From a virus, in IMG/VR virus record IMGVR_UViG_3300050014_000899: a DNA stretch of 64,000 nucleotides. The stretch is one strand, 5' to 3'. The notes beneath the pieces were generated by a model. It had not been told where the DNA came from, did no database searches, and saw only the letters and a list, made by a program, of their open reading frames with translations. Made by a program: the position numbers and the translations under genes. This document shows positions 12,177-63,977 of this stretch, in pieces (position 1 is the stretch's first letter; each line of letters opens with the position of its first letter).

Positions 12177-12249
12177 AAGTTGTAGTAAGATAATAGCGTT
12201 ACTTCGAAACTGATTTGAAAAACACACGCTTGTTCAAATTTCTCAACTT
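12177..12249 (+). ncRNA. Y-RNA-like element A (minimal cargo)
   Basis: AAGTTG-TAGTAA...GTTACTTCG...AAAT-TTCT-CAACTT closing stem. Confidence 0.7.
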
Positions 12250-12257
12250 AAATTATA

Positions 12258-12375
12258 TGGGGAGCAATAACATGCTCTTTCGGTTTTCTTGGGCAACCAT
12301 AGTATGACTAGAGATACTTCGTAACTAGGATCAGTAAAATCTCAAAAGTTGGTGCAATTCCAGCCTCCCCCACCA
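12258..12375 (+). ncRNA. tRNA-like element with internal degenerate Y-like stem
   Basis: GGGGAG/CTCCCC acceptor, T-arm GTTGG-TGCAATT-CCAGC, ACCA end; internal TAGTAT...GATACTTCG. Confidence 0.5.
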
Positions 12376-12430
12376 AATGAAAGCAAGTTAAAAGTTCAAA
12401 CCGGGCAGAATCCGGATCTTGCTTATGAAT

Positions 12431-12592
12431 TAAACTGTAGTAAAGTCAAAAGTTACTTCGAAGCTTTGGGAGCCGGTGACCGCAAGGTCTTGAGGGTGCA
12501 AATCCTTCTACCCCCGCCATATTTTAAGGGGGTATGGTGAAATTAGTAAACACGCCGTATGAAAACACACTTTTAACAAATTTCTCAGTTTA
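12431..12592 (+). ncRNA. Y-RNA-like element B carrying a circularly permuted tRNA (TGG anticodon, long variable arm)
   Basis: Closing stem TAAACTG/CAGTTTA; order anticodon loop-V arm-T arm-TACCCCC-GCCA-linker-GGGGGTA-D arm. Confidence 0.8.
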
Positions 12593-12593
12593 T

Positions 12594-12665
12594 GCCTTCT
12601 TAGTTCTAAAGGTAAAATAGTTGACTTGTAATCATCAGTTATCAGTTCGATTCTGATAGAAGGCT
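12594..12665 (+). tRNA. tRNA-Thr(TGT)
   Basis: GCCTTCT/AGAAGGC, loop CTTGTAA. Confidence 0.85.
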
Positions 12666-12679
12666 CAAAAACATTAACA

Positions 12680-13060
12680 ATGAAAAATTGCGAGAATTGC
12701 GGTAAAATTCTTAATGACATTCGAAAAAAGTATTGCAATAATAAATGTCAAAAAGAACATGAATGGGAACTTAAGAAAGAAAGAATTAAGTTGGGCGAAA
12801 TAGAATCCCCTAAAGCTCTTAGAAGATTCACCATAGAAAGAGATGGAAAATCCTGCAAAATTTGCGGATTAGAAAAATGGAACGGTAAGGATATTCCTTT
12901 AGACATGGATCATATTGATGGAAATAATTCAAATAATTTTCCTATAAATTTAAGAATGATTTGTCCCAATTGTGATGCTCAAACAGATTTTTACAAAGGA
13001 AAAAACAAAGGAAGAGGCAGAGTATACAGAAGAAAACATCAAAATTGTCCCGTGGTGTAA
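12680..13060 (+). CDS. HNH endonuclease
   Basis: CKICG...DMDHIDGNNSNN...NLRMICPNCD. Confidence 0.9.
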   Translation: MKNCENCGKILNDIRKKYCNNKCQKEHEWELKKERIKLGEIESPKALRRFTIERDGKSCKICGLEKWNGKDIPLDMDHIDGNNSNNFPINLRMICPNCDAQTDFYKGKNKGRGRVYRRKHQNCPVV

Positions 13061-13119
13061 TTGGTTAACATATCTGACTTTGGATCAGATGAGTCTAGGT
13101 TCGAACCCTAGCGGGACAG
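13046..13119 (+). tRNA. tRNA-Gln(TTG)
   Basis: TGTCCCG/CGGGACA, loop CTTTGGA. Confidence 0.92.
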
Positions 13120-13129
13120 CAATAAAAAT

Positions 13130-13202
13130 CGAGGATGTGGTGTAACCCGGCAGCACATATGCTTTGGGAGCATAGGGCACAGTTCGAATCTGGCATCCTC
13201 GA
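13130..13202 (+). tRNA. tRNA-Pro(TGG)
   Basis: CGAGGATG/CATCCTCG, loop TTTGGGA. Confidence 0.85.
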
Positions 13203-13263
13203 CAATTTGAAACTAGTTTGTAGAACTTTTTACATAGTTACGTATATAAAATGAAAAGTAACT

Positions 13264-13773
13264 ATGGAATGCAAAAATTGTCAAAAAGAACATGATGGAA
13301 CTTATGGCTCCGGCTTCTTTTGTTCCGTCGAATGTGCTAGAGGATTTAGTCATAAACATTTTACATTAACAGACGATCAAAAACAAAATATTAGTAAAGC
13401 TCTTGAAAAAAGATGGAGGGATAATGATTTTAAAAATATTGATTGGGTTTTATCAGGAGCTAAAGGATCCTCAGGGAAATATAAAAAACCTGAAAATCTT
13501 CTTCAAGTAAGTTCCCGTACCATTGGCAAAATATTTTTAAGATTATTAAAAGAAGAAGGATTTGGATGTTCGAGATGTGGATGGAAAGAGGGTATTGGTG
13601 ATTTGCATCATATAAATGGTAAAAAAATTGAAAACCCAGATCATCATCAAAATTTGTCTTATTTATGCCCTAATTGCCATAGATTGGTTCATCAAAAAAA
13701 GATTGATAAAAACTCCTTAGTTTCTTTGGAAAAACAAATAGGAGATAAATGGAAAAAGTATTATTTTGGATAA
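13264..13773 (+). CDS. HNH endonuclease with N-terminal Zn motif
   Basis: CSRCGW...DLHHING...NLSYLCPNCH. Confidence 0.88.
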   Translation: MECKNCQKEHDGTYGSGFFCSVECARGFSHKHFTLTDDQKQNISKALEKRWRDNDFKNIDWVLSGAKGSSGKYKKPENLLQVSSRTIGKIFLRLLKEEGFGCSRCGWKEGIGDLHHINGKKIENPDHHQNLSYLCPNCHRLVHQKKIDKNSLVSLEKQIGDKWKKYYFG

Positions 13774-13776
13774 TTT

Positions 13777-13848
13777 GCCGACGATCCAGGGAGAAGCTGA
13801 GTCTGTAAAACTCTCGCTCGTTAGTGGTTCGAGATCCACCCGGCGGCA
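13777..13848 (+). tRNA. atypical tRNA, GTA anticodon (Tyr)
   Basis: GCCGACG/CGGCGGC, loop CTGTAAA; weak D arm, enlarged T-loop. Confidence 0.5.
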
Positions 13849-13855
13849 CAAAAAA

Positions 13856-14028
13856 GCGGGTATGGCGAAATGGGTAAACGCCCCTGTTTAGTAGTCTAAT
13901 TTGAATTCTAGAACAGTCAGTTTAGATGAGGAACGGGAGTTCAGCCAGAGAAAAATTGCTCAAGTGATCATGAGAGTGAAATTTCGATGGGAGATCTGAA
14001 ATTCGAGGTTCGATGCCTCGTACCCGCA
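13856..14028 (+). tRNA. tRNA-Leu(GAG)-like with anticodon-loop insertion and enlarged variable arm
   Basis: GCGGGTA/TACCCGC, Leu-type D arm; CCTGT-TT[~37 nt]GAGGA-ACGGG. Confidence 0.6.
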
Positions 14029-14693: not shown

Positions 14694-15113
14694 ATGGATA
14701 AAGAAAAAATAATCGAATCTTGCAAAAGTTCTTTGACAATGGCTGAAGCTGCTAAAAAAGCAGGCATTCCCCATATGACTTTTAAAAGATATGCAATCCA
14801 ATTAGGAGTTTATAAACCTAATCAAGCTGGAATAGGAACATATCGACCTATTACTCCTTTAGAAGATGTATTTTCTGGAAAAGCTAAAATGAGATCCTAT
14901 AATGTTAAATCTCGTCTTATCAGAGAGGGATATAAAGATGGAAAATGTGAAGAATGTCATCTTGATGAATGGAATGGCAAATCTTTAGTTATGGAACTTC
15001 ATCATAAAGATGGAAATAATAGAAACTCAAAATTAGAAAATTTACAAATATTATGTCCTAATTGTCATAGTCAAACTCCGACTTTTAGAAGACAAACAAC
15101 AAAACAACAGTAG
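14694..15113 (+). CDS. HNH endonuclease
   Basis: CEECH...ELHHKDGNNRN...NLQILCPNCHSQT; the upstream in-frame extension is tRNA sequence. Confidence 0.9.
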   Translation: MDKEKIIESCKSSLTMAEAAKKAGIPHMTFKRYAIQLGVYKPNQAGIGTYRPITPLEDVFSGKAKMRSYNVKSRLIREGYKDGKCEECHLDEWNGKSLVMELHHKDGNNRNSKLENLQILCPNCHSQTPTFRRQTTKQQ

Positions 15114-15228
15114 TAACTTAGAGGGTTACATCGCAAATGGTAAAGCAACTAGTCCGAAAAACTGGTGACAGAAATGTCATTTTGGGTTCAAGTCCCAATG
15201 TAAATCGCTCTCTAAAATTTTCTCTGTT
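15106..15228 (+). ncRNA. Y-RNA-like element C carrying a Ser-like tRNA body without a free acceptor end
   Basis: AACAG-TAGTAA...GTTACATCG, D, anticodon (CCGAAAA), V and T arms, ...TTCT-CTGTT. Confidence 0.75.
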
Positions 15229-17122: not shown

Positions 17123-17491
17123 ATGAAAAAACAAATTAGGATTGATAGGGAGAAAGAAACTCCTGGCGTTCTTTTCCAAATTGAAACAGGGGAACTTGAA
17201 ATTAAAGGAAGATCATTTCCAGCAGAAGGGGATACATTTTATAAACCTATCATAGAAGCTGTAGACGATGTTACTTCCGATAGTATTACAGTAAAACTTG
17301 AATTTGAATATGCCAATACTTCTACTGTTCGAGAAATTGTTAAACTTCTTAAAAAAGTTAAAGCAGCGAACAAAAAATCAAAAGTCATCTTTGTTTATGA
17401 AGAAGGGGACAATGATATGCAAGAATTTGGTGAAGATCTAGAATCAGTTTCGGGATTACCATTTGTTTATGTGATTAATCCTGAAGACTAA
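17123..17491 (+). CDS. SiaC / DUF1987 family protein
   Basis: TPGV.F...LEIKGRSFP...FYKPI...EYANTST...YEEGD.DMQE.GED. Confidence 0.8.
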   Translation: MKKQIRIDREKETPGVLFQIETGELEIKGRSFPAEGDTFYKPIIEAVDDVTSDSITVKLEFEYANTSTVREIVKLLKKVKAANKKSKVIFVYEEGDNDMQEFGEDLESVSGLPFVYVINPED

Positions 17492-19288: not shown

Positions 19289-19371
19289 GCCCTCATGATG
19301 GAAATGGGTAGACATACGGGACTCAAAATCCCGTGCTTTTTAGCGTGTGGGCTCGAATCCCACTGAGGGCA
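19289..19371 (+). tRNA. tRNA-Leu(CAA)
   Basis: GCCCTCA/TGAGGGC, loop CTCAAAA. Confidence 0.9.
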
Positions 19372-19377
19372 CAATTT

Positions 19378-19434
19378 TTTAACGATTTTTTAACAAAAAA
19401 CATTTTAGTATTTGGAAAACTTTCTGTATATTTG
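19378..19434 (+). promoter_or_regulatory. promoter: TTTAAC direct repeat plus TATATTTG
   Basis: Repeat 19378-19394, -7 element 19427-19434. Confidence 0.7.
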
Positions 19435-19520
19435 ATCTATTAAAACAAACAAACGTTCTTTAAGAATTCATTTATAGGATAAGCGGATTAGTACGATTAT
19501 TAACCAAAAAATCCTAAAAA

Positions 19521-19736
19521 ATGAAAGCATTCTTATTTTTCGTAACTTCTGATGACACTTGGGAACTTTGCGAATCTATTTATACGGTAACTGCTGAATC
19601 GAAAGAAGAAGCGGAATCGATATTTAAGCTTCGAGAAGGAGGATATTTTTCATCGGAAAAAAGGATCACGAATATCCAGGAAATAGATTTATCTGTAAAA
19701 GGACAAGTCCAAATCCAGGAATATATGATCGAATAG
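19521..19736 (+). CDS. hypothetical protein
   Basis: ORF. Confidence 0.65.
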   Translation: MKAFLFFVTSDDTWELCESIYTVTAESKEEAESIFKLREGGYFSSEKRITNIQEIDLSVKGQVQIQEYMIE

Positions 19737-20033
19737 GTTCTTTGATTAAGCCGTTCGTATTGTAGAGTTGTTTAGGAGCCATGACGGTTACCAGGCTGAT
19801 AACATCTCTTCACTTTATTTTTATGCTGGTGGAAAACTAAGCAGGAGAGTCAACTGAGCTGCGGGATATTAACATACTAGGAAGTAAATCCAGGAGCTCT
19901 TTTAAAATCTAATCTGGGAGGGATGAATGCTTATACCTGATGCAACGACTGGCCGGTCACTGCGTTATAGGTCCAAAAATGGTTCAAGTCCATACGCCGG
20001 TGCTATTATCAAATGTTCTTTGAAAAAATTATA

Positions 20034-20333
20034 ATCCGTAGTAAGTTAAAGAGTTACTTCGACTAACGGCCCAAAGGTAGTACCGACACCGCGAGGTGCC
20101 CACGAATACTCAGAAGGGTATCGTTTCACAGATCTCTCGTAGATGCTGGAGACGGGTAACGATGGAACATATAGAAGTTTTTTGTATAAGTCAGGAGGAC
20201 TAATAATCCGTATACACTGTGAAAATGAAAAACAACAGGCCTGGGTTTAAAACTGATAGCAATATTAGTGTGCCTATAAAGTTCCAAGCGACCGGCCACC
20301 CAAGATAATCACTCTAAACAAGGATTCTCGGAT
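20034..20333 (+). ncRNA. Y-RNA-like element D (about 245 nt structured cargo)
   Basis: ATCCG-TAGTAA...GAGTTACTTCG...ACTCT...TTCT-CGGAT. Confidence 0.7.
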
Positions 20334-20341
20334 AACATTAC

Positions 20342-20416
20342 AATTCGTGGTAAGACAAAGGGTTACTTCGCCATCTATGTATAGCCAAAACACACTCTAG
20401 TCAAATTTCCCGGATT
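20342..20416 (+). ncRNA. Y-RNA-like element E (minimal cargo)
   Basis: G-TGGTAA...TTCC-C compensatory variant; GGTTACTTCG. Confidence 0.7.
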
Positions 20417-20430
20417 CAATTCTAAAAGAA

Positions 20431-20510
20431 ACCCATGGTGAGACAAAGAGTTACTTCGTACAATTCCTAAAAAACTGTAATAAAAGATCATCTCTAGTCA
20501 ATTTCCTGGT
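20431..20510 (+). ncRNA. Y-RNA-like element F (minimal cargo)
   Basis: CCA-TGGTGA...GAGTTACTTCG...CTCTAGTC-AAT-TTCC-TGG. Confidence 0.7.
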
Positions 20511-20533
20511 AATTCTTTTCTTTAAAAAATACG

Positions 20534-20630
20534 CGGTTTCCTGCCTGTTAGTACGCAAGCTTTGGCAGCTCTGATATAATATTAGCTATAAAAATCAGAT
20601 GAGGGGTGTGAATCCCCGGAACCGAGACCA
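20534..20630 (+). ncRNA. tRNA-like element with expanded anticodon loop (copy 1)
   Basis: CGGTTTCC/GGAACCG acceptor, T-arm GGGG-TGTGAAT-CCCC, ends AGACCA. Confidence 0.55.
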
Positions 20631-20633
20631 TAC

Positions 20634-20724
20634 GGCAGCCTCCGATGAGAGAGACATTCGGCCCCAGTTCAATATTGGCCATAAAAACTGGGAGATGGGT
20701 TAAAATCCCAGGGTCGCCAGACCA
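20634..20724 (+). ncRNA. tRNA-like element with expanded anticodon loop (copy 2)
   Basis: GGCAGCCT/GGGTCGCC, T-arm TGGG-TTAAAAT-CCCA, ends AGACCA. Confidence 0.55.
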
Positions 20725-20968
20725 CAAGGAAGATCACGCAGCTTCGTACTGCAAGCCGGAAGTTTACTTCCAGATCTTCCCTCTGAGCACGGTGCCTGTG
20801 TCAAGCACAGGATCTAGTTATAGACAAATAGCCGCTTTTTAGCCTTCTCGATAGTGTGCGTAACAAATCGGGTCCAGCGTGATAAGCTCTACGGACAGGC
20901 TTAAGGTTAGCTTCAATCTTCTAAGATTTGCAGTCATGAGCATAAAAACGGTTCGAAAGGTTTTTGGG

Positions 20969-21002
20969 AGAGGTTCTTAAATAAATTAGGACCTCTTTTT
21001 TT
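20969..21002 (+). terminator. intrinsic terminator ending ncRNA cluster
   Basis: AGAGGTTCT...AGGACCTCTTTTTTT. Confidence 0.7.
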
Positions 21003-21149
21003 GTGGTCCACAACAAAGAGCATTAAAAATGCTCTGTCGTTATAGGTGATTTCTAAACAAATTTATTTTATTGCTGAGGTAGATGCGATGCATATCGAAG
21101 GCCCTACTTTGGATGAGTATTTTGATGGTTTACAAAAACATTTATCAGA

Positions 21150-21335
21150 ATGGCAAAGGAATATCGGGAACAATCCTCGGAAGTAAAGAAGGTCATTTAT
21201 GACTTAGCCTGCGAGTTTGGTTTTGAACATTATTCAACCCCAGAAGAGATCGATTATAAGTTCTGGGAAGACATTCCAGCCGAGTGGATTGCCATTGCAC
21301 TTGCTCAAAAACTCGTCGCTAAGTCCAGTTCTTAA
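21150..21335 (+). CDS. hypothetical protein
   Basis: ORF. Confidence 0.55.
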   Translation: MAKEYREQSSEVKKVIYDLACEFGFEHYSTPEEIDYKFWEDIPAEWIAIALAQKLVAKSSS

Positions 21336-21362
21336 GATTTTTTGGATTTATATATACTTAAA

Positions 21363-21419
21363 TTTAACAATATTTTAACAAAAGCATAAGATTTTCTACA
21401 GAACTTTATCGTATATTTG
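21363..21419 (+). promoter_or_regulatory. promoter: TTTAAC direct repeat plus TATATTTG
   Basis: Repeat 21363-21379, -7 element 21412-21419. Confidence 0.7.
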
Positions 21420-21449
21420 CTCTATAGAAATCAAACAAACATTTTAAAG

Positions 21450-21519
21450 ATTTCGTTGTAGTAAGAGAAGGGTTACTTCGTTTCAGAAAAAACACTCTTT
21501 TCAAGTTTCTCAGCTAAAT
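21450..21519 (+). ncRNA. Y-RNA-like element G (minimal), upstream of the Ro60 gene
   Basis: GTTG-TAGTAA-GAGAAGGGTTACTTCG...ACTCTTTTC-AAGT-TTCT-CAGC. Confidence 0.72.
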
Positions 21520-21551
21520 TTGCATTTATTTTTTATACTATTTAAATATGC

Positions 21552-21587
21552 AAAAACCCGAGAGACTTATGTCGCCCGGGTTTTTTT
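21552..21587 (+). terminator. intrinsic terminator
   Basis: AAAAACCCG...CGGGTTTTTTT. Confidence 0.6.
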
Positions 21588-21614
21588 ATGAATTTAATTT
21601 TAAAACTAAATAAG

Positions 21615-21839
21615 ATGGCTAAAGCAACTGAAAAAACAACAACTGATGAACTCGTTTACAGTCCAGTTGAAGACAATGGTAAGAATATTGCCAACAGTCC
21701 TATTTGGAAGAACGCATGGCACAGGGATGAAATAACTCCCGAAGCTCTTAATAAATTTCATAATTGGTGGGAATATGCCATTAGATTCGACGGGTTAAAG
21801 CCACAACAGCTTTTAAAAGTTAAAAAGGTTCTTTTATAA
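21615..21839 (+). CDS. hypothetical protein
   Basis: ORF 21588-21839; likely start MAKAT. Confidence 0.65.
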   Translation: MAKATEKTTTDELVYSPVEDNGKNIANSPIWKNAWHRDEITPEALNKFHNWWEYAIRFDGLKPQQLLKVKKVLL

Positions 21840-21840
21840 T

Positions 21841-22458
21841 ATGTTTAATGTTTATCTAACAACAAATTTGATTACGGGGAACCAATACGTCGGTGACCAT
21901 GATATAAATGCAAAAGAAAAAACTTTTTACATTGGAAGTGGAATAGCTTTAGAGGATGCAATTAAAAAATATGGTCGACATAATTTTTTCAAAGAAATTT
22001 TAGAATGGTTTCCAACAAGAGAGAAAGCTTTTAATGCTCAGGAAAAATACATACGACTTTATAAAACACATGTTTCGCAAGGAGGATATAATATAAGTTG
22101 GAAAGGCGGATTAAATGTCCAAGGATGCATGTGTGATGAGATTCGAGACAAAATTAGCAAAAGTAATCAAATAGCTTGTTCCGGAGAAAAAAATGGAATG
22201 TTTGGTAAACATCATTCCGAAGAAACCAAATTGCAGCTTCAGGTTCCGAAATCAGAAGAGACAAAGAATAAAATAGGAACTGCAAATAAAGGTAAAAAAT
22301 CATGGGAAGGAAAACACCATACATCATTATCAATATTGAAAATGCAAGCTTCTCATCAAAATATGTCCGATAAGACAAAAGAAAAAATGAGTAAATCGCG
22401 TAAAGGAAAAGAACCCTGGAATAAGGGATTAAAAATAAATTCTTTAATTAAAAATTAA
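21841..22458 (+). CDS. GIY-YIG homing endonuclease with NUMOD3 repeats
   Basis: VYLTT...YVGDH...YIGSG; GKHHSEETK. Confidence 0.88.
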   Translation: MFNVYLTTNLITGNQYVGDHDINAKEKTFYIGSGIALEDAIKKYGRHNFFKEILEWFPTREKAFNAQEKYIRLYKTHVSQGGYNISWKGGLNVQGCMCDEIRDKISKSNQIACSGEKNGMFGKHHSEETKLQLQVPKSEETKNKIGTANKGKKSWEGKHHTSLSILKMQASHQNMSDKTKEKMSKSRKGKEPWNKGLKINSLIKN

Positions 22459-22465
22459 TAGTAAG

Positions 22466-24169
22466 ATGTCAAAGTACAACACAAAAATTGAGCCGGTAGT
22501 TCAGAAGACTACTACTCTACAGGGAGGCCCAGGGCTTACTCAGAGACCTGAGGCAGAATTAATTTCTATTCTTGCAACCGGAATGGGAAATAACTTTTAC
22601 GAAAAGGAAACCGAACGTGAAAAGCGTTTTAAGGAAGTACTTGGTAAGGTAGCTAAGAAGAACCCGACATTTGCCGCAAAGGCTCTTATTTATGCTCGTA
22701 CCGTATTTGGTCAGAGATCAGTAACTCACTTCGGTGCAGTTGAACTTATCCCTTTCCTTCAGGGTAACGAACTTGGTAAGAGATTCTTCTCCAAGAGAGA
22801 TAAGAAGGCCGAACGTGGTGGAATCATATGGAGAATTGATGACATGGCTGAAATTCTTGCAGCTTATATCGCTAAGAATGGCATCAAGCAGGAAGATAAG
22901 TGGACTCTTCCGAATTCAATTAAGAAGGGATTCAAGGATGCTCTCGAGCATGCAGACACTTATGAACTTGCAAAGTATCAGTTAAAGAACCGTGGTGTAT
23001 CACTTGTTGACATCGTCAACCTTGTTCACCCAGTTGAAACTCCTAAGAACGGTTTCATCTATGTAACTGAGGAAGCATACAAGAAGGCAGTTGCAGGAAC
23101 TAAGTTTGCAAACAAGGAATTTAACAAGAATGAAAAGGGAGAAGTTCAGGTTCCGGCCGTTCGTGCTCTTATTCTTGGAATTCTTAAGCAGTTCAACACA
23201 GTTGAAGATAAGAACACCGAGTCAGGAAAGGTTGTTGCAGAAAAGGTTAAGTCAGGTGAAATCACCAAGGAACAGGCTGCAACTGAGCTTAACGAAGCTA
23301 AGACCGAAAACTACAAGGAACTTATCGAGGAAAAGAAGATTGGATACCTTGCATTACTCCGTAACGTAAGGAACATTCTTAAGACAAATGATATGGATTT
23401 ACTTGACAAGGCTTGCGATTTACTTGTCGAAAAGGAATTCATCAGAAAGTCACTTGTATGGCCACACCAGATTGACCTTGCCCTTGAAGTTATGACACTT
23501 GAATTCAACGGAACACAGTTGAGGAAGGTTGCAACAGCACTCGACAAGGCATATGAACTTTCAATTCCTAACTTGGAGCATTTACTTCCGGAAGGAAGAA
23601 CTGCTATCGTATTCGATACATCAGGTTCGATGGATGGTGCAAACCGTATTCCAATTGATGCTAAGGATCCGAAGAAGACTATCAACAAGAAGCCAGCTGA
23701 AAAGGCTGCTCTTATTGCCGCTACACTTGCAAAGGGTGTTGGCGGAGATGTATATCATTTCGCATCAGGTTCTGAACAGATCACCGGCTGGAACCCAATC
23801 GATTCGATTAATACTCTTAAGCAGAAGTTCATGTCCTACAACGGACGTCAGGGTCACGGAACCGACTTCGGTGCATGCTTCAAGTTATTCGAAAGAATGA
23901 ATAAGCAGTATGACAGGGTTCTTATTATCTCCGATGAGCAGGACGGATACGGAAACGTTGAGTCTAACTACAAGGGATACTGCCAGAAGTTCGGAACCCC
24001 ATACGTATACATAATCAACGTAGTTGGTTATGCCCCAACCGCTCCGATAAAGAACGGCGACAGGGTCTTCAGACTATACGGTTACACGGCCGATATATAT
24101 GAAAAGATACCGAGATTGGAAATGAATGTTAATGAGGTCATCGACGCCATTAACAGGATCGAAATCTAA
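22466..24169 (+). CDS. rsr: Ro60 / TROVE-domain ribonucleoprotein with vWA domain (Rsr-like)
   Basis: YARTVFGQRS, YELAKYQ...VSLVDIVNLVHP, GYLALLRNVRN; vWA MIDAS DTSGSM, GTD, IISDEQ. Confidence 0.9.
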   Translation: MSKYNTKIEPVVQKTTTLQGGPGLTQRPEAELISILATGMGNNFYEKETEREKRFKEVLGKVAKKNPTFAAKALIYARTVFGQRSVTHFGAVELIPFLQGNELGKRFFSKRDKKAERGGIIWRIDDMAEILAAYIAKNGIKQEDKWTLPNSIKKGFKDALEHADTYELAKYQLKNRGVSLVDIVNLVHPVETPKNGFIYVTEEAYKKAVAGTKFANKEFNKNEKGEVQVPAVRALILGILKQFNTVEDKNTESGKVVAEKVKSGEITKEQAATELNEAKTENYKELIEEKKIGYLALLRNVRNILKTNDMDLLDKACDLLVEKEFIRKSLVWPHQIDLALEVMTLEFNGTQLRKVATALDKAYELSIPNLEHLLPEGRTAIVFDTSGSMDGANRIPIDAKDPKKTINKKPAEKAALIAATLAKGVGGDVYHFASGSEQITGWNPIDSINTLKQKFMSYNGRQGHGTDFGACFKLFERMNKQYDRVLIISDEQDGYGNVESNYKGYCQKFGTPYVYIINVVGYAPTAPIKNGDRVFRLYGYTADIYEKIPRLEMNVNEVIDAINRIEI

Positions 24170-30606: not shown

Positions 30607-30803
30607 GTGCACCAGACGAAAGCTTAGAAACATTACAAGCTGACATAAGGAATAAATTAACCCCAACTAAGAATCTTTTGGCTTTGTTGGATCTCTATTT
30701 TAAAGAGACTGATGAAACTAAGAAAGCTAAGTTAGTTAGTTTTATTGAGAAAGAAAGAATCAAGGTTAAAGAAAACGTAACATATTTATCAAATATATTA
30801 TAA
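30603..30803 (+). CDS. hypothetical protein
   Basis: ORF, coupled. Confidence 0.6.
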   Translation: MSAPDESLETLQADIRNKLTPTKNLLALLDLYFKETDETKKAKLVSFIEKERIKVKENVTYLSNIL

Positions 30804-32521: not shown

Positions 32522-32525
32522 AATA

Positions 32526-32837
32526 ATGGAAGAAAAAATAGGTAACACCGCATGTTATTATAAAAGAAAAACTTTATCTTCGATTGCAATTACATTAAAA
32601 GATGTTTTTGATCAAATCGATATGGCTGCTTCTAGCGGAAAATACGGAGCCAATATTAAAGAAGAACTATCCGATGATCAATTGGAAGTTCTAGAAGGTC
32701 TAGGATTTGAACTAACCGTTTATGATGAAGATGATACGGAATGGGACGAAGGTATCAAATATCTTATAGAATGGGAACAGGCAGATCTTGATGAGGATGA
32801 TAATAATTCTAAATATACTGACGGAGACAATAACTAA
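32526..32837 (+). CDS. hypothetical acidic protein
   Basis: ORF. Confidence 0.65.
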   Translation: MEEKIGNTACYYKRKTLSSIAITLKDVFDQIDMAASSGKYGANIKEELSDDQLEVLEGLGFELTVYDEDDTEWDEGIKYLIEWEQADLDEDDNNSKYTDGDNN

Positions 32838-32842
32838 AAAAA

Positions 32843-43551: not shown

Positions 43552-43552
43552 A

Positions 43553-51685: not shown

Positions 51686-51949
51686 AGTGTAGTAAGTGAT
51701 TTGCTTTACTTCGTACTAATTCTTGGCTTCGGTCAGGACTATGGGAGGATTCCCAGACACTATGTGATTATACTCATGTAAACGGCAAGTGACATGAGAA
51801 GCTTCGGCTTCAAAAAGGTCAGGAACTCAGAAAGGCTGGCAGGACGAATAAAATAAATCCTGTATCTGGGATGGTTTGGCAAGGTCCAGGTTTAAAAAAA
51901 TCTTCTAGAGATAGGAACTCTTAAAAACGCGCAACACCGGATTCTCACT
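51686..51949 (+). ncRNA. Y-RNA-like element H (about 215 nt cargo)
   Basis: AGTG-TAGTAA-GTGATTTGC-TTTACTTCG...GCAACAC...TTCT-CACT. Confidence 0.68.
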
Positions 51950-52964: not shown

Positions 52965-53208
52965 ATCTATAGTAAGTTGGCGTGATACATCGTTCGAGGA
53001 GCAATCCTCACAATAAAAATTCTTGCGTAAGCAAAATCAAAATTGATTCTACGACGATTGTCAATACAGAGCAGGAATTTTCCCACTGGGTTCGACAGCG
53101 AAAGCTTCGGTAGTTAGGCGACTTAATCTCGTACTAACCATTTTCCTAGGACGTGACGATCAAGAGAAGTTAAACTCTTTAAAATCTCACCCCACAATTT
53201 TCTTGGAT
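52965..53208 (+). ncRNA. Y-RNA-like element I (about 190 nt cargo)
   Basis: ATCTA-TAGTAA-GTTGGCGTGA-TACATCG...TCACCCCAC-AATT-TTCT-TGGAT. Confidence 0.62.
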
Positions 53209-60426: not shown

Positions 60427-60528
60427 ATATGTAGTAAGAAAAGGGTTACATCGGTTATGATTGGTTCGATTCCAATTTTACCCTGCGAAAGCTCGGGTGA
60501 ATTAAAGCTCTTTTCAATTTTCTCATAT
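60427..60528 (+). ncRNA. Y-RNA-like element J (T-arm plus closed acceptor-like stem)
   Basis: ATATG-TAGTAA...GGTTACATCG, ATTGG-TTCGATT-CCAAT, TTACCC/GGGTGAA, TTCT-CATAT. Confidence 0.78.
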
Positions 60529-60534: not shown

Positions 60535-60608
60535 GTCGATAATAGTTTAATGGTAGAATATCCAGCGGTAAAACGAGGGAAGGAACCGGTTCGATTCCGG
60601 CTAAGACT
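60535..60608 (+). pseudogene. degenerate tRNA
   Basis: D arm and T arm present; anticodon and acceptor stems disrupted. Confidence 0.45.
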
Positions 60609-60611
60609 CCT

Positions 60612-60761
60612 GGGAGTATAGCTCAATGGTAGAGCAATTGGCTGTCTACAGACAGAAGTGTCTGAATAAAAACTTTAGGTGAAGTCTTATGAAGTTAAAG
60701 GAATCAAAATCCTCTTCATCTGCTAACCAATAGGTTCTGGGTTCGAGTCCCTGTGCCCCCG
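60612..60761 (+). tRNA. tRNA-Asn(GTT) with ~78 nt anticodon-loop intron/insertion
   Basis: ATTGG-CTGT[60646-60723]TAA-CCAAT restores the canonical Asn loop. Confidence 0.7.
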
Positions 60762-61680: not shown

Positions 61681-61917
61681 GCCCTGGTAGTTTAACTGGA
61701 GGAGGAACATGAAGTTATTAAATGCTCTCAACACTCAGCGCTGAGATGTTGGTCAAAGAGACATCAGACCTGATAAAAAAGTTAGGGAGGTGCAAAGGCA
61801 TTTATTAAAGAATGGTGGAATAGCTTGCCATCCAAATTTAATTTATGCTGGTAATAGACATTCCGAGAATTCTGGATTCGTTCAGAGGTGTGGGTTCGAT
61901 TCCCGCTGGGGGTTCCA
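61681..61917 (+). tRNA. tRNA-like gene with ~165 nt insertion in the anticodon arm
   Basis: 5' half GCCCTGGTAGTTTAACTGG...TGAA; 3' half TTCA...GTGGG-TTCGATT-CCCGC...TCCA; weak acceptor stem. Confidence 0.5.
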
Positions 61918-61925
61918 ATTTTAAA

Positions 61926-61998
61926 GTTCTTTTAGCTCAGTTGGAAGAGCGCTTCCGTGACATGGAAGAGGCCGTAGATTCGAGTTCTACAAGGAACA
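61926..61998 (+). tRNA. tRNA-Val(GAC)
   Basis: Loop GTGACAT. Confidence 0.88.
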
Positions 61999-62003: not shown

Positions 62004-62079
62004 AGCGACATAGCTCAGTGTGAGAGCGCTCCCGTTCATAGGGAGAGGTGCGGAGGTTCAATTCCTTCTGTCGCTACCA
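62004..62079 (+). tRNA. atypical tRNA, loop GTTCATA (TCA by canonical count; CAT off-register)
   Basis: AGCGACA/TGTCGCT-A-CCA; CTCCC/GGGAG stem. Confidence 0.6.
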
Positions 62080-62182: not shown

Positions 62183-62247
62183 CGAAATTCACTGTGAAGG
62201 TGAAATTTAATTTTCTTTCCAAAAGTTCGAACATAAGAAAGAAGATT

Positions 62248-62322: not shown

Positions 62323-62396
62323 GTTCCTTTAGCTCAGCTGGAAGTAGCGCCACCCCTACATGGTGGATGTCATAGGTTCGATCCCTATAAGGAACA
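62323..62396 (+). tRNA. tRNA-Val(TAC) (C33)
   Basis: GTTCCTT/AAGGAAC, loop CCTACAT. Confidence 0.85.
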
Positions 62397-62397
62397 C

Positions 62398-62537
62398 AAA
62401 CTGTAGTAAAACAGCGAGTTACTTCGTATTCCAAACGACTAGTCTAGGTGCAAATCCTGGGTCCCCTGCCAAAATTACTTAGGGGATTAGTGTAATAGAT
62501 AGCACAGTAAAAACACTCAAGTTAAATTTCTCAGTTT
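62398..62537 (+). ncRNA. Y-RNA-like element K carrying a circularly permuted tRNA (Trp/Gly-like)
   Basis: AAACTG/CAGTTT stem; loop ATTCCAA, T-arm, GTCCCCT-GCCA, linker, AGGGGAT, D arm. Confidence 0.8.
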
Positions 62538-62539
62538 AC

Positions 62540-62641
62540 GGGAATGAAACTATTAGGGGGCGGAACCCTTTTATCCACAGTAGGAATAGTGATAAGGAAG
62601 CAGGCCGATCACCTGAGTGAGTTCGATTCTCACCATTTCCA
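62540..62641 (+). ncRNA. tRNA-like element with non-canonical core
   Basis: GGGAATG/CATTTCC acceptor, T-arm GTGAG-TTCGATT-CTCAC. Confidence 0.45.
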
Positions 62642-62699
62642 CTAGTAGACCGTTATAATTTCATAGGACTCACATTGGAGAGTACAGCGTAGAAATTAA

Positions 62700-62773
62700 T
62701 GGGACACATGTTCCAAGGCAAGGCGAATGAGTTTTGCAAACTTGTTGGGAGGTTTCGATTACCTTTGTCTCCA
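62700..62773 (+). tRNA. atypical tRNA, TGC anticodon (Ala?)
   Basis: Loop TTTGCAA; T-arm present. Confidence 0.55.
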
Positions 62774-62778
62774 CACAC

Positions 62779-62874
62779 TGCGGAAGAGTGAAACGGATAG
62801 AGATTTTAATTAATTTCGCTATCATCCAGGGCTCATAACCCTCGGGATATTGGGTTCGACTCCCATTTCCGCTA
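62779..62874 (+). tRNA. initiator-like tRNA-Met(CAT) with D-loop insertion
   Basis: GGG-CTCATAA-CCC, 1:72 mismatch, ~20 nt extra in D loop. Confidence 0.65.
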
Positions 62875-62991
62875 CTAAAAACAAATGGCAGCACAACACC
62901 TAAAGGGACGCTTTTAAGGTAGTGGCCGAAGCATCGAAAATCAGAAATGACCTGCCGATGTAAAAAACGAATCCGGGCGTTTGTTTTATAT

Positions 62992-63078
62992 GCCGTCGTG
63001 CCAGAGTGGCCAATCGGGGAGGGCTCATATCCCTTGGCTTTTATAGCCCCATAGGTTCGAATCCTATCGACGGTACCA
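62992..63078 (+). tRNA. tRNA-Met/Ile2(CAT) with long variable arm
   Basis: GCCGTCG/CGACGGT-A-CCA, loop CTCATAT. Confidence 0.75.
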
Positions 63079-63094
63079 AATTTAATGTATAAAA

Positions 63095-63601
63095 ATGTAT
63101 TATACAATTTACAAAACTACGAATAAATTTAATGGCAAGTTTTATATCGGAAAGCATCAGACTCAGAAATTAAATGATAATTATTTAGGGTCTGGAAAAG
63201 CTTTGGAACTGGCTATTAAGAAATACGGTAAAGAGAATTTTCAAAAAAGAATTATTTTTGTTTTTGATAATGAAATTTTAATGAATCAAAAAGAAAAAGA
63301 AATTGTTACAGAGAATTTTATATCCAGCAATACAAATTATAATTGTGGGGTTGGGGGAGAAGGAGGAGCTCAATTCTTAAATAAATCTCACTCTGAAAAA
63401 ACTAAAAAATTGCTTGCTGAAAAAGCTAAATTAATAAAGCCCTCTAAAGAAACTAGAGATAAAATATCAGAGGGTAATAGAAAAAGAACATTATCTAAAG
63501 AAACAAGAAATAAACTCTCTCAAAAATCTTTCGAGAGATGGAAAAAATTGCGGGTTGGAGAAAATAGTCATCTCATTGGGCTCATAACCCAAGGTTGCTA
63601 G
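63095..63601 (+). CDS. GIY-YIG homing endonuclease
   Basis: TIYKTT...YIGKH...YLGSG...GGEGG; overlaps next tRNA. Confidence 0.88.
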   Translation: MYYTIYKTTNKFNGKFYIGKHQTQKLNDNYLGSGKALELAIKKYGKENFQKRIIFVFDNEILMNQKEKEIVTENFISSNTNYNCGVGGEGGAQFLNKSHSEKTKKLLAEKAKLIKPSKETRDKISEGNRKRTLSKETRNKLSQKSFERWKKLRVGENSHLIGLITQGC

Positions 63602-63624
63602 GGCGGTACTAGTGCCCGCTACCA
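63549..63624 (+). tRNA. initiator-like tRNA-Met(CAT), degenerate T-loop
   Basis: TTGGG-CTCATAA-CCCAA; GCGGGT/GCCCGC; ACCA. Confidence 0.6.
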
Positions 63625-63629
63625 ATTAA

Positions 63630-63741
63630 GCTGTAGTAACTGTAAGAATTACTTCGTTGAGTTCGATTCTCAATTTTCCCGCCAGATTTTAAAGGGAAAA
63701 TCGCCACAAAGGGTGGCATTATTCTTCTAATTTTTCTCAGC
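63630..63741 (+). ncRNA. Y-RNA-like element L (permuted T-arm/acceptor-CCA/D-like arm)
   Basis: GCTG-TAGTAA...ATTACTTCG, TTGAG-TTCGATT-CTCAA, TTTTCCC-GCCA...GGGAAAA, TTCT-CAGC. Confidence 0.8.
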
Positions 63742-63797
63742 GAAAATACATGCCGGATGACCCCCGTTGTATCACGGTGCCGGCTCCAATAAGGTCA

Positions 63798-63870
63798 GAT
63801 CTCGTAGCTCAGTTGGTAGAGCACATCCCTTTTAAGGATGGGGTCCTGGGTTCGAGCCCCAGCGGGATCA
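63798..63870 (+). tRNA. tRNA-Lys(TTT)
   Basis: GATCTCG/CGGGATC, loop CTTTTAA. Confidence 0.93.
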
Positions 63871-63871
63871 C

Positions 63872-63977
63872 AATCGTAGTAATGGAAAGAGTTACTTCGT
63901 GCTAATGGTTAGCAAAATCCTGTTAAGATTACTTCGCGGTTCAATTCCGCCTGTTACCTCTTCCGATTTTCTCGATT
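63872..63977 (+). ncRNA. Y-RNA-like element M carrying an acceptor-less tRNA-Asn(GTT) body
   Basis: AATCG-TAGTAA...GAGTTACTTCG, D arm, AATC-CTGTTAA-GATT, T-arm, TTCT-CGATT. Confidence 0.78.

What the first reader, a model, noticed from the sequence alone, without database searches (positions are those of the whole stretch)
12177..63977. A phage Ro60 with at least 13 modular Y-RNA-like ncRNAs: one conserved closing stem, interchangeable cargo
Seen: copies at 12177, 12431, 15106, 20034, 20342, 20431, 21450, 51686, 52965, 60427, 62398, 63630 and 63872. All share [variable 4-7 bp stem]-T(A/G)GT(A/G)A-[helix]-TAC(T/A)TCG-cargo-[helix]-AAT-like-TTC(T/C)-[stem]. Outer and inner helices differ in sequence but keep pairing, and TAGTAA/TTCT becomes TGGT(A/G)A/TTCC in E and F (compensatory), implying a conserved bulged helix. 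Cargo ranges from about 12 to 245 nt and includes permuted tRNAs and acceptor-less tRNAs. Copy G is the first transcript from the promoter upstream of the TROVE/vWA gene (22466-24169). Known: Ro60/Rsr binds a bulged terminal helix of Y RNAs, and bacterial YrlA RNAs carry a permuted tRNA-like (T-acceptor-D) domain, usually with few Y RNAs per genome. Inference: an expanded, sequence-divergent Y-RNA repertoire that tethers Ro60 to many different RNA modules, for example tRNA-mimic decoys against anticodon nucleases or adaptors for nucleases and ligases.
Basis: partly seen in the sequence, partly recalled or inferred. Interest (0 to 1): 0.95.

Follow-up and report, generated by a model that had tools for sequence, protein, structure and literature searches.

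The report
Phage Ro60 partner RNAs, modular
A giant phage carries thirteen small RNA genes that share one conserved folded "handle" but hold different inserts, many of them whole, partial or rearranged tRNA look-alikes, and this handle almost always sits beside a Ro60-type RNA-binding ring protein, so these are probably a new and much expanded kind of Y RNA.

Summary
All 13 copies are at the stated places, all on the + strand; 100 simulated sequences gave a mean of 0.03.

They share a closing stem, a 4-bp helix with one bulged base (U-R-G-Y-A-A against U-U-C-Y), a second helix and UUAC(U/A)UCG. Pairing is kept through compensatory changes: 93-95% of cells pair, against 41-61% in slid controls.

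The link to Ro60 holds in both directions:
- 16 of 29 phage records with the handle encode a TROVE protein, and 5 of 5 complete ones do. None of 22 control records does.
- 71 of 80 TROVE loci carry at least one handle within 5 kb. All 132 hits are on the gene's strand.
- One 634-kb phage has the handles beside TROVE with no tRNA gene within 20 kb.

Inserts include YrlA-like permuted tRNA domains, tRNA bodies without an acceptor stem, and short hairpins.

The handle lacks the published CGAA-type motif and matches no Rfam Y RNA model. I read it as a new variant of Y RNA. Ro60 binding and function are inferred, not shown.

Earlier notes of this scan report similar arrays on other DNA. I did not check whether they share this handle.

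The parts
12177..12249 (+). Copy A, 73 nt: handle with a short hairpin as cargo. It starts 11 nt after tRNA-Cys.
   Evidence: Regex; closing stem 6 bp; R1 69.2 bits, a training copy; MFE fold; spacing.
12431..12592 (+). Copy B, 162 nt: handle plus a YrlA-type permuted tRNA-like domain. The domain has small hairpins, a T arm, a 7-bp acceptor-like hairpin whose 3' strand is followed by GCCA, and a D-like arm. It ends 1 nt before tRNA-Thr.
   Evidence: Regex; closing stem 7 bp; MFE fold. R1 gives only a marginal partial hit over its 3' part, 12540-12591, E 2.3.
15106..15228 (+). Copy C, 123 nt: handle plus a tRNA body (D-like arm, anticodon arm with loop CCGAAAA, an extra hairpin, T arm) with no true acceptor stem.
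   Evidence: R1 31.2 bits. ARAGORN calls 15123-15208 tRNA-Phe, but Rfam tRNA scores only 24.9 bits, below the 29-bit cut-off. Fold.
20034..20333 (+). Copy D, 300 nt: handle with long cargo of unknown kind. The 3' end is assigned from the TTCT motif plus a 5-bp stem only.
   Evidence: The R1 hit is weak (18.8 bits, E 0.067) and closes inside the cargo at 20140. MFE does not close the ends.
20342..20416 (+). Copy E, 75 nt: handle with short cargo, the TGGTAA/TTCC variant. It lies 8 nt after D.
   Evidence: R1 69.5 bits, a training copy.
20431..20511 (+). Copy F, 81 nt: handle with short cargo, the TGGTGA/TTCC variant. Its closing stem is only about 3 bp.
   Evidence: R1 31.9 bits, full length; sequence read; fold.
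21455..21514 (+). Copy G, 60 nt: the minimal handle (the closing stem can be extended to 21450-21519 with one mismatch). It lies 951 nt upstream of the TROVE start and is followed by a hairpin plus T-run at about 21556-21590.
   Evidence: R1 65.4 bits, a training copy. A syntenic element lies upstream of TROVE in 16 of 18 close relatives. Sequence read.
22466..24169 (+). Ro60-type protein of 567 aa (TROVE ring plus a vWA domain with DxSxS MIDAS), the inferred protein partner of the handles.
   Evidence: Pfam TROVE 33 bits against a cut-off of 23. phmmer against PDB: phiLo Ro60 9KOP/9L5Y at E 6e-20 over residues 15-190 and 245-554. D384, S386 and S388 are invariant in 15 family members.
51686..51949 (+). 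Copy H, 264 nt: handle with long cargo, and a closing stem of only 4 bp.
   Evidence: The cargo is 74% identical over 143 nt to a 310-nt element in phage contig L055. R1 does not find it and MFE does not close the ends.
52965..53208 (+). Copy I, 244 nt: handle with long cargo. The 3' end is tentative, with three candidate closures, and the second helix pairs poorly.
   Evidence: R1 matches only the 5' part, 12.6 bits, E 2.
60427..60528 (+). Copy J, 102 nt: handle plus a T arm and one hairpin. It starts directly after tRNA-Asp (gap 0).
   Evidence: R1 50.6 bits; fold; spacing.
62398..62537 (+). Copy K, 140 nt: handle plus a YrlA-type permuted domain. The domain has a hairpin, a T arm, a 7-bp acceptor-like hairpin with GCCA, and a D arm. 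It starts directly after tRNA-Val (gap 0).
   Evidence: R1 31.1 bits; fold; spacing. Close relatives of the same design occur in L055, L095, L002 and L085.
63630..63741 (+). Copy L, 112 nt: handle plus a T arm, a 7-bp acceptor-like hairpin with GCCA, and one further hairpin.
   Evidence: R1 26.9 bits; fold.
63872..63977 (+). Copy M, 106 nt: handle plus a tRNA body (D arm, anticodon arm with loop CUGUUAA, T arm) and no acceptor stem. It starts directly after tRNA-Lys (gap 0).
   Evidence: R1 37.4 bits; fold; spacing. The same design occurs in L026, L055, L069, L063, L100 and L037.

Best explanation
The 13 elements are genes for small RNAs that play the part of Y RNAs for the phage's own Ro60-type protein (ORF 22466-24169).

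**The handle.** Each RNA brings its two ends together in a conserved handle made of:
- a free-varying closing stem;
- an almost invariant 4-bp helix, 5'-U-R-G-Y-A-A against U-U-C-Y-3', with one bulged pyrimidine and an unpaired U;
- a 4-nt loop on the 3' strand;
- a 9-11 bp second helix;
- a UUAC(U/A)UCG junction.

I infer that the handle is the Ro60 docking site, by analogy with the bulged terminal helix of known Y RNAs.

**The cargo.** The handle displays a variable cargo. Types seen are nothing or a short hairpin, a T arm plus hairpin, a tRNA body without an acceptor stem, a complete cloverleaf (in relatives), and a permuted YrlA-like tRNA domain whose 7-bp acceptor hairpin carries an encoded NCCA.

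**Production.** Most copies sit in slots of tRNA operons, 0-11 nt from a neighbouring tRNA. They are probably released by the enzymes that mature tRNAs.

**Likely action, by analogy with Rsr-YrlA-PNPase and phiLo Ro60-Yrl-PNPase.** The handle holds Ro60, and the tRNA-like cargo recruits or occupies tRNA-binding enzymes. So the phage would build a set of different Ro60 particles that act on tRNA or RNA turnover, or on host defence, during infection.

**Shown here:** the motif, the structure and its covariation, the cargo anatomy, and the genomic coupling to TROVE.

**Inferred:** transcription, processing, Ro60 binding, and the downstream effect.
For: **Reality and structure.**
- 13 copies on one strand, against 0.03 expected.
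- Alignment A2 (12 short elements): 93.7% of cells paired, 9 of 20 pairs with compensatory change, 0 of 500 shuffles as high, slid controls 41-61%.
- Alignment A3 (53 distinct elements): 95.1% paired, 16 of 19 pairs compensatory.
- Alignment A6 (84 distinct elements taken from TROVE-anchored loci, not from the pattern scan): 93.4% paired against 67.9% shuffled, and covariation 0.630 against 0.169.
- G-U pairs in the stems and the single-strand bias fit an RNA.

**Coupling to Ro60.**
- TROVE is present in 16 of 29 handle-bearing phage records (12 of 29 at or above Pfam's cut-off) and in 5 of 5 that are at least 90% complete. It is present in 0 of 22 control records that had only chance pattern matches. 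Fisher p = 1.0e-5.
- In two complete genomes scanned end to end, all 8 hits sit in one locus beside TROVE.
- 16 of 18 close TROVE relatives have a handle 275-1290 nt upstream on the same strand. The other two are cut off by contig ends.
- 71 of 80 TROVE loci at 35-78% identity have at least one handle within 5 kb. All 132 hits are on the TROVE strand.
- In LR745206.1 (TROVE 33% identical), R1 finds one handle in the 575-nt spacer before the gene. By eye I read a second, variant handle (UAGCGA) after it. There is no tRNA within 20 kb.
- 4 of 30 pattern loci from bacterial and archaeal genome contigs have R1 hits, and 3 of those 4 carry TROVE on the same contig. I located the gene next to the elements for two of them.
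- TROVE is the only ORF family shared by all 55 neighbourhoods examined. The next family is in 25 of 55.

**Protein.**

**Precedent.**
- Y RNAs are encoded next to Ro60. YrlA has the V-T-AS-D order. M. smegmatis YrlA, with a 7-bp acceptor stem, is cut by RNase P and receives CCA (Chen 2014, PMC4201824, passages read).
- phiLo Ro60 binds two upstream Yrl RNAs and forms a complex with host PNPase (PMC12135203, passages and section 17 read).
Against: - No Rfam Y RNA family (YrlA RF02553, Y_RNA) matches any copy, even at E<=10.
- The published Ro60-contact motif (GGUCCGA, GNCGAAN0-1G, CGAA) is not in the handle's 5' strand, which reads UAGUAAG.
- There is no expression or binding data.
- 13 of 29 handle-bearing records show no TROVE. 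All 13 are fragments, 1-62% complete.
- 9 of 80 TROVE loci show no handle. 5 of these have under 600 nt upstream, but L232, L233, L236 and L267 do not have that excuse.
- More distant phage Ro60 relatives lack the handle: Vibrio phage Va1 (26% identity) and E. coli phage Bas63.
- In many genomes TROVE, the handles and the tRNA array lie together, so part of the co-occurrence could reflect a shared home in tRNA clusters. The tRNA-free locus in LR745206.1 is one case, plus a Saprospiraceae contig where the only tRNA call lies inside an element.
- A3 and A6 were fitted to the model, which favours the structure.
- The loci were retrieved with the 5' motif itself, so motif invariance in A3 is partly by selection.
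Confidence: 0.77

Rival explanations
1. The handle is a leader-trailer clamp of the tRNA operon. It would be a processing or storage device that cages tRNAs and tRNA parts until they are matured or joined, much as the paired ends of permuted or split tRNA genes guide their processing. Ro60 would then be a chaperone or quality-control factor for these precursors, not a protein regulated by them.
For: - 7 of 13 copies lie within 0-11 nt of a tRNA. In G005 and G003 the elements fill slots between tRNAs with gaps of 2-8 nt.
- 12 of 68 elements hold a cloverleaf that ARAGORN accepts, with ordinary anticodon loops.
- Permuted cargoes carry a 7-bp acceptor stem followed by an encoded NCCA.
Against: - 6 of the 13 window copies, and most TROVE-proximal elements, carry no tRNA part at all: 56 of the 84 elements in A6 are 63-91 nt long.
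- Handles occur beside TROVE with no tRNA gene nearby.
- In the 8 tRNA-body cargoes aligned, the acceptor position is a 3-5 bp helix made by the invariant CUUCG, and the anticodon stems are almost entirely A-U pairs. Both are unlike working tRNAs.
- YrlA-type cargoes (B, K) have no anticodon arm, so they cannot decode.
Confidence: 0.13
2. The handle is recognised by another factor, either a phage protein encoded elsewhere or a host enzyme. Or it acts in cis, for example as an operator through which the TROVE gene's expression is controlled. In either case TROVE adjacency does not mean a stable Ro60-RNA particle.
For: - Binding was not tested.
- Copy G and its counterparts in 16 of 18 relatives lie upstream of TROVE on the same strand, as a leader element might.
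- An RlaP-type RNA-repair nucleotidyltransferase is encoded in the window at 458-1567.
Against: - No other ORF family accompanies the handles. The next family after TROVE is in 25 of 55 neighbourhoods.
- In the window two ORFs, and a hairpin followed by a T-run, separate G from TROVE.
- Twelve further copies lie 1-40 kb away, and in relatives elements also lie downstream of the gene. That does not suit a cis operator.
Confidence: 0.07
3. It is a DNA-level repeat, such as a target or by-product of the many homing endonucleases in the tRNA arrays, or a recombination site. On this view it has no RNA function.
For: GIY-YIG and HNH endonuclease ORFs are interspersed with the arrays.
Against: - Helices are kept by compensatory changes, and by G-U pairs that would be A-C on the other strand.
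- All 13 window copies and all 132 copies in TROVE loci lie on the transcribed strand.
- The cargoes are folded tRNA parts with their own covariation.
Confidence: 0.02

Closest known systems
Bacterial and phage YrlA / YrlB Y RNAs with Rsr (Ro60): Chen et al. 2014, PMC4201824; Rfam RF02553
   Same: - Small RNAs encoded next to a Ro60 gene, several per genome.
- The ends pair in a stem taken to be the Ro60 site.
- One type carries a permuted tRNA-like domain in the order V, T, acceptor stem, D (copies B and K). Another is a plain hairpin (copies A, E, F and G resemble YrlB).
[quoted passage not shown]
   Different: - The handle reads U-R-G-Y-A-A ... UUAC(U/A)UCG ... UUCY, not GNCGAAN0-1G.
- The Rfam YrlA model does not match.
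- There are 13 copies in 52 kb, against the at least two Y RNAs found in each of the three bacteria characterised in that paper.
- The copies are spread through tRNA operons.
- Cargo types not described there occur: tRNA bodies that keep the anticodon arm, T arm plus hairpin, and 240-300 nt inserts.
- NCCA is encoded rather than added.
Thermus phage phiLo Ro60 with Yrl1 and Yrl2 (NAR 2025, PMC12135203; PDB 9KOP, 9L5Y)
   Same: - It is the closest solved relative of the window's protein, at E 6e-20.
- The partner RNAs lie upstream of the gene.
- It is a phage Ro60 shown to bind them and to form a complex with host PNPase.
   Different: - phiLo has two RNAs, which were found through a CGAA motif in a large internal bulge. 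Here CGAA is not conserved.
- The paper describes no tRNA-like cargo and no tRNA-operon setting in the parts I read (abstract, passages, section 17).
Metazoan Y RNAs (Ro60 binding to a bulged terminal helix)
   Same: - A terminal helix formed by the 5' and 3' ends.
- A conserved short helix with a single bulged pyrimidine on the 5' strand and extra unpaired bases on the 3' strand.
- Variable upper parts.
   Different: - The sequence differs (GGUCCGA / UUGACC type, recalled and quoted in PMC4201824).
- The Rfam Y_RNA model does not match.
- Metazoan Y RNAs have no tRNA-like module (stated in PMC4201824).
E. coli phage Bas63 gp130, a Ro60-like protein that counters the Ppl defence system (PhageMaP preprint, 10.1101/2024.10.10.617714)
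   Same: - A Ro60-like gene lies directly upstream of the phage's tRNA genes.
- The authors guess that some annotated tRNAs are Y RNAs.
- It gives an experimental hint that a phage Ro60 serves counter-defence.
   Different: Neither the TROVE family profile A5 nor the handle model R1 matches Bas63 (MZ501086.1). It is a more remote system, and its RNAs, if any, have another handle.

Membership tests
Y RNA in the functional sense (RNA partner of a Ro60/TROVE protein) | Encoded close to the Ro60 gene and co-distributed with it | tested here: met
   - Copy G lies 951 nt upstream of TROVE.
- 16 of 18 close relatives and 71 of 80 TROVE loci have a handle nearby on the same strand.
- 16 of 29 handle-bearing records have TROVE, against 0 of 22 controls.
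Y RNA in the functional sense (RNA partner of a Ro60/TROVE protein) | The 5' and 3' ends pair in a stem that holds a conserved bulged helix | tested here: met
   Covariation is shown. The invariant helix A/G-G-[Y bulge]-A-A against U-U-C-U/C is shown.
Y RNA in the functional sense (RNA partner of a Ro60/TROVE protein) | Physical binding to Ro60 | not testable with these tools
   This needs EMSA or RIP. It is inferred only.
YrlA (Rfam RF02553) | Match to the family covariance model at or above the gathering score (69 bits) | tested here: not met
   No copy is hit, even at E<=10. The two weak YrlA hits (19.5 and 18.9 bits) lie at 61889-61950 and 60585-60635, outside the elements.
YrlA (Rfam RF02553) | GNCGAAN0-1G motif near the 5' end (Chen 2014) | tested here: not met
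   The 5' strand reads U-R-G-Y-A-A-G. CGAA follows TACTT only in copies A and B.
YrlA (Rfam RF02553) | tRNA-like domain in the order V, T arm, acceptor stem-loop, D arm | tested here: met
   Met for copies B and K, and in part for L (T arm plus acceptor hairpin). Not met for the other ten copies.
Metazoan Y_RNA (Rfam RF00019) | Match to the family model | tested here: not met
   No hit.
Ro60 / Rsr protein family (for ORF 22466-24169) | TROVE domain plus a C-terminal vWA domain with a MIDAS motif | tested here: met
   Pfam TROVE scores 33 bits against a cut-off of 23. The protein aligns to phiLo Ro60 over residues 15-190 and 245-554, with DTSGS aligned to DVSGS. D384, S386 and S388 are invariant in 15 relatives. 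The ring fold itself was not modelled.
Transfer RNA (for the cargoes) | Complete cloverleaf with a 7-bp acceptor stem and a free 3' end | tested here: not met
   Among the window copies only C is called by ARAGORN, and it scores 24.9 bits against the Rfam cut-off of 29. Copy M lacks an acceptor stem. B, K and L have a closed acceptor hairpin. In relatives, 11 of 55 elements hold a cloverleaf that ARAGORN accepts.

The most novel reading that the evidence does not exclude
The handle-Ro60 pair is a general display platform. Large phages would load one ring protein with a library of tRNA look-alikes of many anticodon identities: bodies without acceptor stems, and permuted forms with a CCA end. 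These would intercept or redirect host enzymes that attack or sense tRNAs, such as anticodon nucleases and other tRNA-targeting defences, or hand damaged tRNAs to repair or decay enzymes. That would make Ro60 particles a programmable counter-defence organ, with each RNA a cartridge.

A bolder variant is that RNase P opens the permuted forms, giving two-piece, chargeable tRNA-like RNAs held together by Ro60.
Probability: 0.2. Interest if true: 0.9.

Novelty: new variant of a known kind. Interest (0 to 1): 0.72.

Why it matters
What Ro60 and Y RNAs do in bacteria and phages is still poorly understood. In the papers I read, each characterised genome has only a few Y RNAs (at least two in each of three bacteria, two to four in most vertebrates), and they were found through one sequence motif (CGAA type).

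This locus shows a second, well-defined handle:
- It is conserved across at least 71 phage loci and some Bacteroidota contigs.
- Rfam does not have it.
- It has expanded to 13 copies in this window.
- It is used to mount very different tRNA-derived modules.

That gives a compact, testable system. There is one protein, a 60-nt minimal ligand (copy G), and natural variants of bulge and cargo. With these one can ask how a Ro60 ring reads its RNA and what the tRNA mimicry is for.

The finding also warns that some "tRNA genes" in phage arrays are not tRNAs. 12 of 68 elements are called as tRNAs by ARAGORN.

One preprint links a remote phage Ro60-like gene next to tRNA genes with escape from a host defence system. 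So a role in counter-defence is a concrete hypothesis.

Tried and rejected
**Rfam.** I scanned the whole window at gathering thresholds and 22 kb around the elements at E<=10. Only tRNA overlaps any copy (C, below cut-off). YrlA and Y_RNA were rejected as families. No Dictyostelium Class I RNA family appeared either. That lead came from earlier notes.

**Whole-genome search.** No genome is held for this window. The window's own contig was not among the IMG/VR hits; the best TROVE identity was 78%.

**The genome search with model R1 on five complete records.** It found only short-cargo elements, so I did not use it for copy counts. I fetched two genomes in pieces instead.

**A third helix (CUUCG pairing with a CGAAG-like run after the cargo).** It is 82.5% paired in 8 tRNA-body elements, with one compensatory pair. 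In short-cargo elements I saw only UUC/GAA by eye, so I keep it as tentative.

**Stretch 12250-12430, between copies A and B.** It folds no better than shuffles, z = -0.32, so I did not count it as a 14th copy.

**Vibrio phage Va1 (TROVE 26% identical).** No R1 hit and no YrlA hit.

**Bas63.** No hit with A5 or R1.

**Promoter claim for copy G.** Promoter-like sites in 19300-22600 number 10, against 10.0 expected, so there is no support from that scan.

**Literature.** I found no paper describing this handle. Two reviews (PMC10870794, PMC6047535) are not held. The supplementary tables of Chen 2014 that list phage YrlA candidates may bear on whether any related phage was already covered.

**Not done.** I did not model the protein structure, run R-scape, or scan metagenome contigs.

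**Rows dropped.**
- For A2 I dropped 7 of 19 short elements whose 3' ends MAFFT had misaligned.
- For A6 I passed 55 of the 80 loci. I left out near-duplicates and loci already used.
- 3 of 25 control records were not held.

Full report
**Setting.** The window is part of a large uncultured phage genome. Nearly all ORFs are on the + strand. It has 29 ARAGORN tRNA calls in two arrays, at 12.1-19.4 kb and 59.7-63.9 kb, and many homing-endonuclease ORFs lie between them. No whole genome is held. Earlier notes of this scan call it a peat phage.

- A regex for the 5' half of the motif, T[AG]GT[AG]A-N6-18-TAC[AT]TCG, finds 13 sites. 100 first-order Markov simulations of the window gave a mean of 0.03 and a maximum of 1.
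- For 12 of 13 sites, a TTCY lies downstream and is followed by at least 4 nt complementary to the bases just before the motif. Copy F has about 3 bp.
- Unconstrained folding closes the ends in 11 of 13 copies, not in D or H.
- I aligned 12 short elements, 3 from the window and 9 from other phage contigs, and wrote down one structure. It consists of a closing stem; then an unpaired U; then A/G-G, a bulged base and A-A, paired with U-U-C-U/C; then four unpaired bases on the 3' strand; then a second helix of about 9 bp. On that alignment 93.7% of cells pair, 9 of 20 pairs show compensatory change, no shuffle of 500 reaches any measure, and slid controls give 41-61%.
- The covariance model R1 built from this alignment finds 9 of the 13 window copies full-length at E<1e-3. 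Three of these are training copies. Copy D gets a weak hit (E 0.067) that closes inside its cargo, B and I get marginal partial hits (E about 2), and H is not found. These four have cargo over 130 nt. R1 finds no extra copy and none on the - strand.
- The ends of D, H and I are therefore less certain. Part of H is conserved in contig L055.

**The family beyond the window.**
Most single hits are chance.
- R1 confirms 55 elements in 27 of the first 100 loci and more in L112 and L113.
- On the 53 distinct rows, 95.1% of cells pair and 16 of 19 pairs have compensatory changes. That alignment is fitted to the model, and its loci were chosen by the motif.
- A cleaner set comes from loci found through the protein (see the reverse test below). 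There, 84 distinct elements give 93.4% paired against 67.9% shuffled, and covariation 0.630 against 0.169. The pair next to the bulge is A-U 65 times, G-C 19 times, and never broken.
- In that set U7, G9, A13, U29, C31, U33, C34 and the two U of UUCY are invariant. The bulged base is U in 73 and C in 11.

**Link to Ro60: the protein.** ORF 22466-24169 scores 33 bits on Pfam TROVE, against a cut-off of 23. Its best solved relative is the Ro60 of Thermus phage phiLo (9KOP, 9L5Y) at E 6e-20. The alignment covers residues 15-190 and 245-554 and includes a DxSxS MIDAS motif.

**Link to Ro60: forward test.**
- Of 29 phage records with R1-confirmed handles, 16 have a TROVE match at E<=0.01, 12 of them at or above Pfam's cut-off. 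All 5 records that are at least 90% complete have one. The 13 without are fragments, 1-62% complete.
- Of 22 control records that had only chance pattern matches, none has one. Three more were not held. Fisher p = 1.0e-5.
- In most positive records the gene lies within 0-4 kb of the elements. I worked this out from the coordinates.
- Two complete genomes (174.7 and 100.4 kb), scanned end to end, have all 8 hits in one locus beside TROVE and interleaved with the tRNA array.

**Link to Ro60: reverse test.**
- Of 18 close relatives of the protein in IMG/VR (67-79% identity), 16 have a short handle 275-1290 nt upstream on the same strand. The other two have only 36 and 599 nt of upstream sequence.
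- A profile of 15 family members found 246 relatives, of which the best 80 were kept (35-78% identity). Of these, 71 have at least one handle within 5 kb, and all 132 hits are on the gene's strand.
- Of the nine without a handle, five have under 600 nt upstream. L232, L233, L236 and L267 do not have that excuse.

**Separating TROVE from tRNA arrays.** Handles, TROVE and tRNA genes often sit together, so the link could be to the arrays. Three results argue for TROVE.
- In the 634-kb phage LR745206.1 (TROVE 33% identical), R1 finds a handle in the 575-nt spacer before the gene. By eye I read a second handle there, a UAGCGA variant with a 7-bp closing stem. ARAGORN finds no tRNA within 20 kb on either side.
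- In a Saprospiraceae contig, two elements lie 100-400 nt upstream of a 484-aa TROVE ORF, and the only tRNA call lies inside one of the elements.
- Clustering all ORFs of 55 TROVE neighbourhoods shows TROVE in 55 of 55 and the next family in 25 of 55. No other protein gene travels with the handle.

**Cargo.**
- In the window: A, E, F and G carry a short loop or hairpin. J carries a T arm plus a hairpin. L carries a T arm, a 7-bp hairpin whose first strand is followed by GCCA, and another hairpin.
- B and K carry small hairpins, a T arm, the same acceptor-like hairpin with GCCA, and a D arm. That is the V-T-AS-D order drawn for YrlA.
- C and M carry D, anticodon and T arms without an acceptor stem.
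- D, H and I carry 240-300 nt of unknown fold.
- The same classes recur in other phages.
- ARAGORN accepts a tRNA inside 12 of 68 elements, 11 of 55 from other phages and 1 of 13 in the window.
- Eight tRNA-body elements from seven contigs were aligned. RNAalifold recovered, on its own, the closing stem, the second helix and the D, anticodon and T arms, with compensatory changes in 21 of 27 pairs.
- In these eight, the invariant CUUCG pairs with a CGAAG-like run after the T arm (82.5% of cells paired, one compensatory pair). This stands where the acceptor stem would be. The anticodon stems are almost entirely A-U.
- So these are mimics mounted at different points of the tRNA shape, not ordinary tRNA genes.

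**Position in operons.** J, K and M begin at the base after a tRNA. B ends 1 nt before a tRNA, C ends 5 nt before one, and A starts 11 nt after one. D, E and F follow each other with gaps of 8 and 14 nt. In G005 the elements fill slots between tRNAs with gaps of 2-8 nt. Release by tRNA-maturing enzymes is a reasonable inference, but it is not shown.

**How it probably works.** Published work gives the frame.
- Y RNAs are encoded beside Ro60, bind it through the stem formed by their ends, and tether it to other proteins such as PNPase or gate its cavity.
- YrlA mimics tRNA. The M. smegmatis YrlA, which has a 7-bp acceptor stem, is cut by RNase P and gains CCA while staying bound to Rsr (PMC4201824, passages read).
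- phiLo Ro60 binds two upstream Yrl RNAs and joins host PNPase (PMC12135203).

I therefore read the handle as the docking module and the cargo as the effector module. B, K and L are likely RNase P substrates. What the particles do is open. A preprint reports that a remote Ro60-like gene next to the tRNA genes of coliphage Bas63 counters the Ppl defence system (10.1101/2024.10.10.617714, passages read). Bas63 matches neither my protein profile nor the handle model, so this is a pointer only. The window also encodes an RlaP-type RNA-repair nucleotidyltransferase.

**Comparison and novelty.**
- The system works like Ro60 with Y RNAs and meets the genomic and structural criteria.
- It fails membership of Rfam YrlA and Y_RNA, and it lacks the GNCGAAN0-1G / CGAA motif.
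- New relative to the papers I could read: the handle itself, the copy number, the embedding in tRNA operons, and the range of cargo.
- Six literature searches found no description of it. Two reviews were not held.
- Earlier notes of this scan describe handle-tagged tRNA mimics beside Ro60-like genes in other phages. I did not test whether they share this handle, and a sequence look-up with copy G returned only this genome.

**Verdict.** Binding and function remain to be shown. I class it as a new variant of a known kind, with interest 0.72.

Noticed in passing
window 20512-21012: About 500 nt after copy F hold no ORF of 80 aa or more and have several G+C-rich hairpins, ending in a hairpin plus T-run near 20975-21012. 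No Rfam family matches. This may be another structured RNA.
   Followed up: no
window 12250-12430: Between copies A and B lies a tRNA-like stretch. It has a GGGGAG/CUCCCC stem followed by ACCA, a T arm, and an internal TAGTAT...TACTTCG that resembles the handle's 5' half. It folds no better than shuffles, z = -0.32.
   Followed up: partly
window 458-1567: This ORF is an RlaP-family RNA-repair nucleotidyltransferase (PF10127, 70 bits). It hints that the phage carries other RNA-repair functions besides Ro60.
   Followed up: no
window 30803-33508 and 39734-40912: NAD salvage genes are present: NAD synthase with a CN-hydrolase domain, an isochorismatase-family protein, and nicotinate phosphoribosyltransferase. 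Such a set is typical of phage NAD-replenishing counter-defence (recalled).
   Followed up: no
window 43472-45520: A 682-aa ORF has TonB-dependent receptor Plug and beta-barrel domains. This is an unusual gene for a phage, and it may point to a Gram-negative host, perhaps Bacteroidota.
   Followed up: no
window 62004-62079: A tRNA with anticodon UCA is called tRNA-SeC by ARAGORN and scores 54.9 bits as an ordinary tRNA in Rfam. It may be an opal-suppressor tRNA. A handle cargo with the same anticodon occurs in L058:1603-1732.
   Followed up: no
L153 (LR745206.1) 19620-19905: The second handle before this 634-kb phage's TROVE gene reads UAGCGA, with a bulged C and a G-U pair, and carries about 250 nt of cargo. 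A terminator-like hairpin follows, just before the start codon.
   Followed up: partly
L185 and L186 (Saprospiraceae and Saprospirales MAG contigs): The same handle lies beside 484-487 aa TROVE ORFs on contigs binned as Bacteroidota bacteria. I did not determine whether these contigs are cellular, prophage or mis-binned phage DNA.
   Followed up: partly
window 17123-17491: A SiaC-family regulatory phosphoprotein ORF (PF09345, 83 bits) sits inside the first tRNA array.
   Followed up: no
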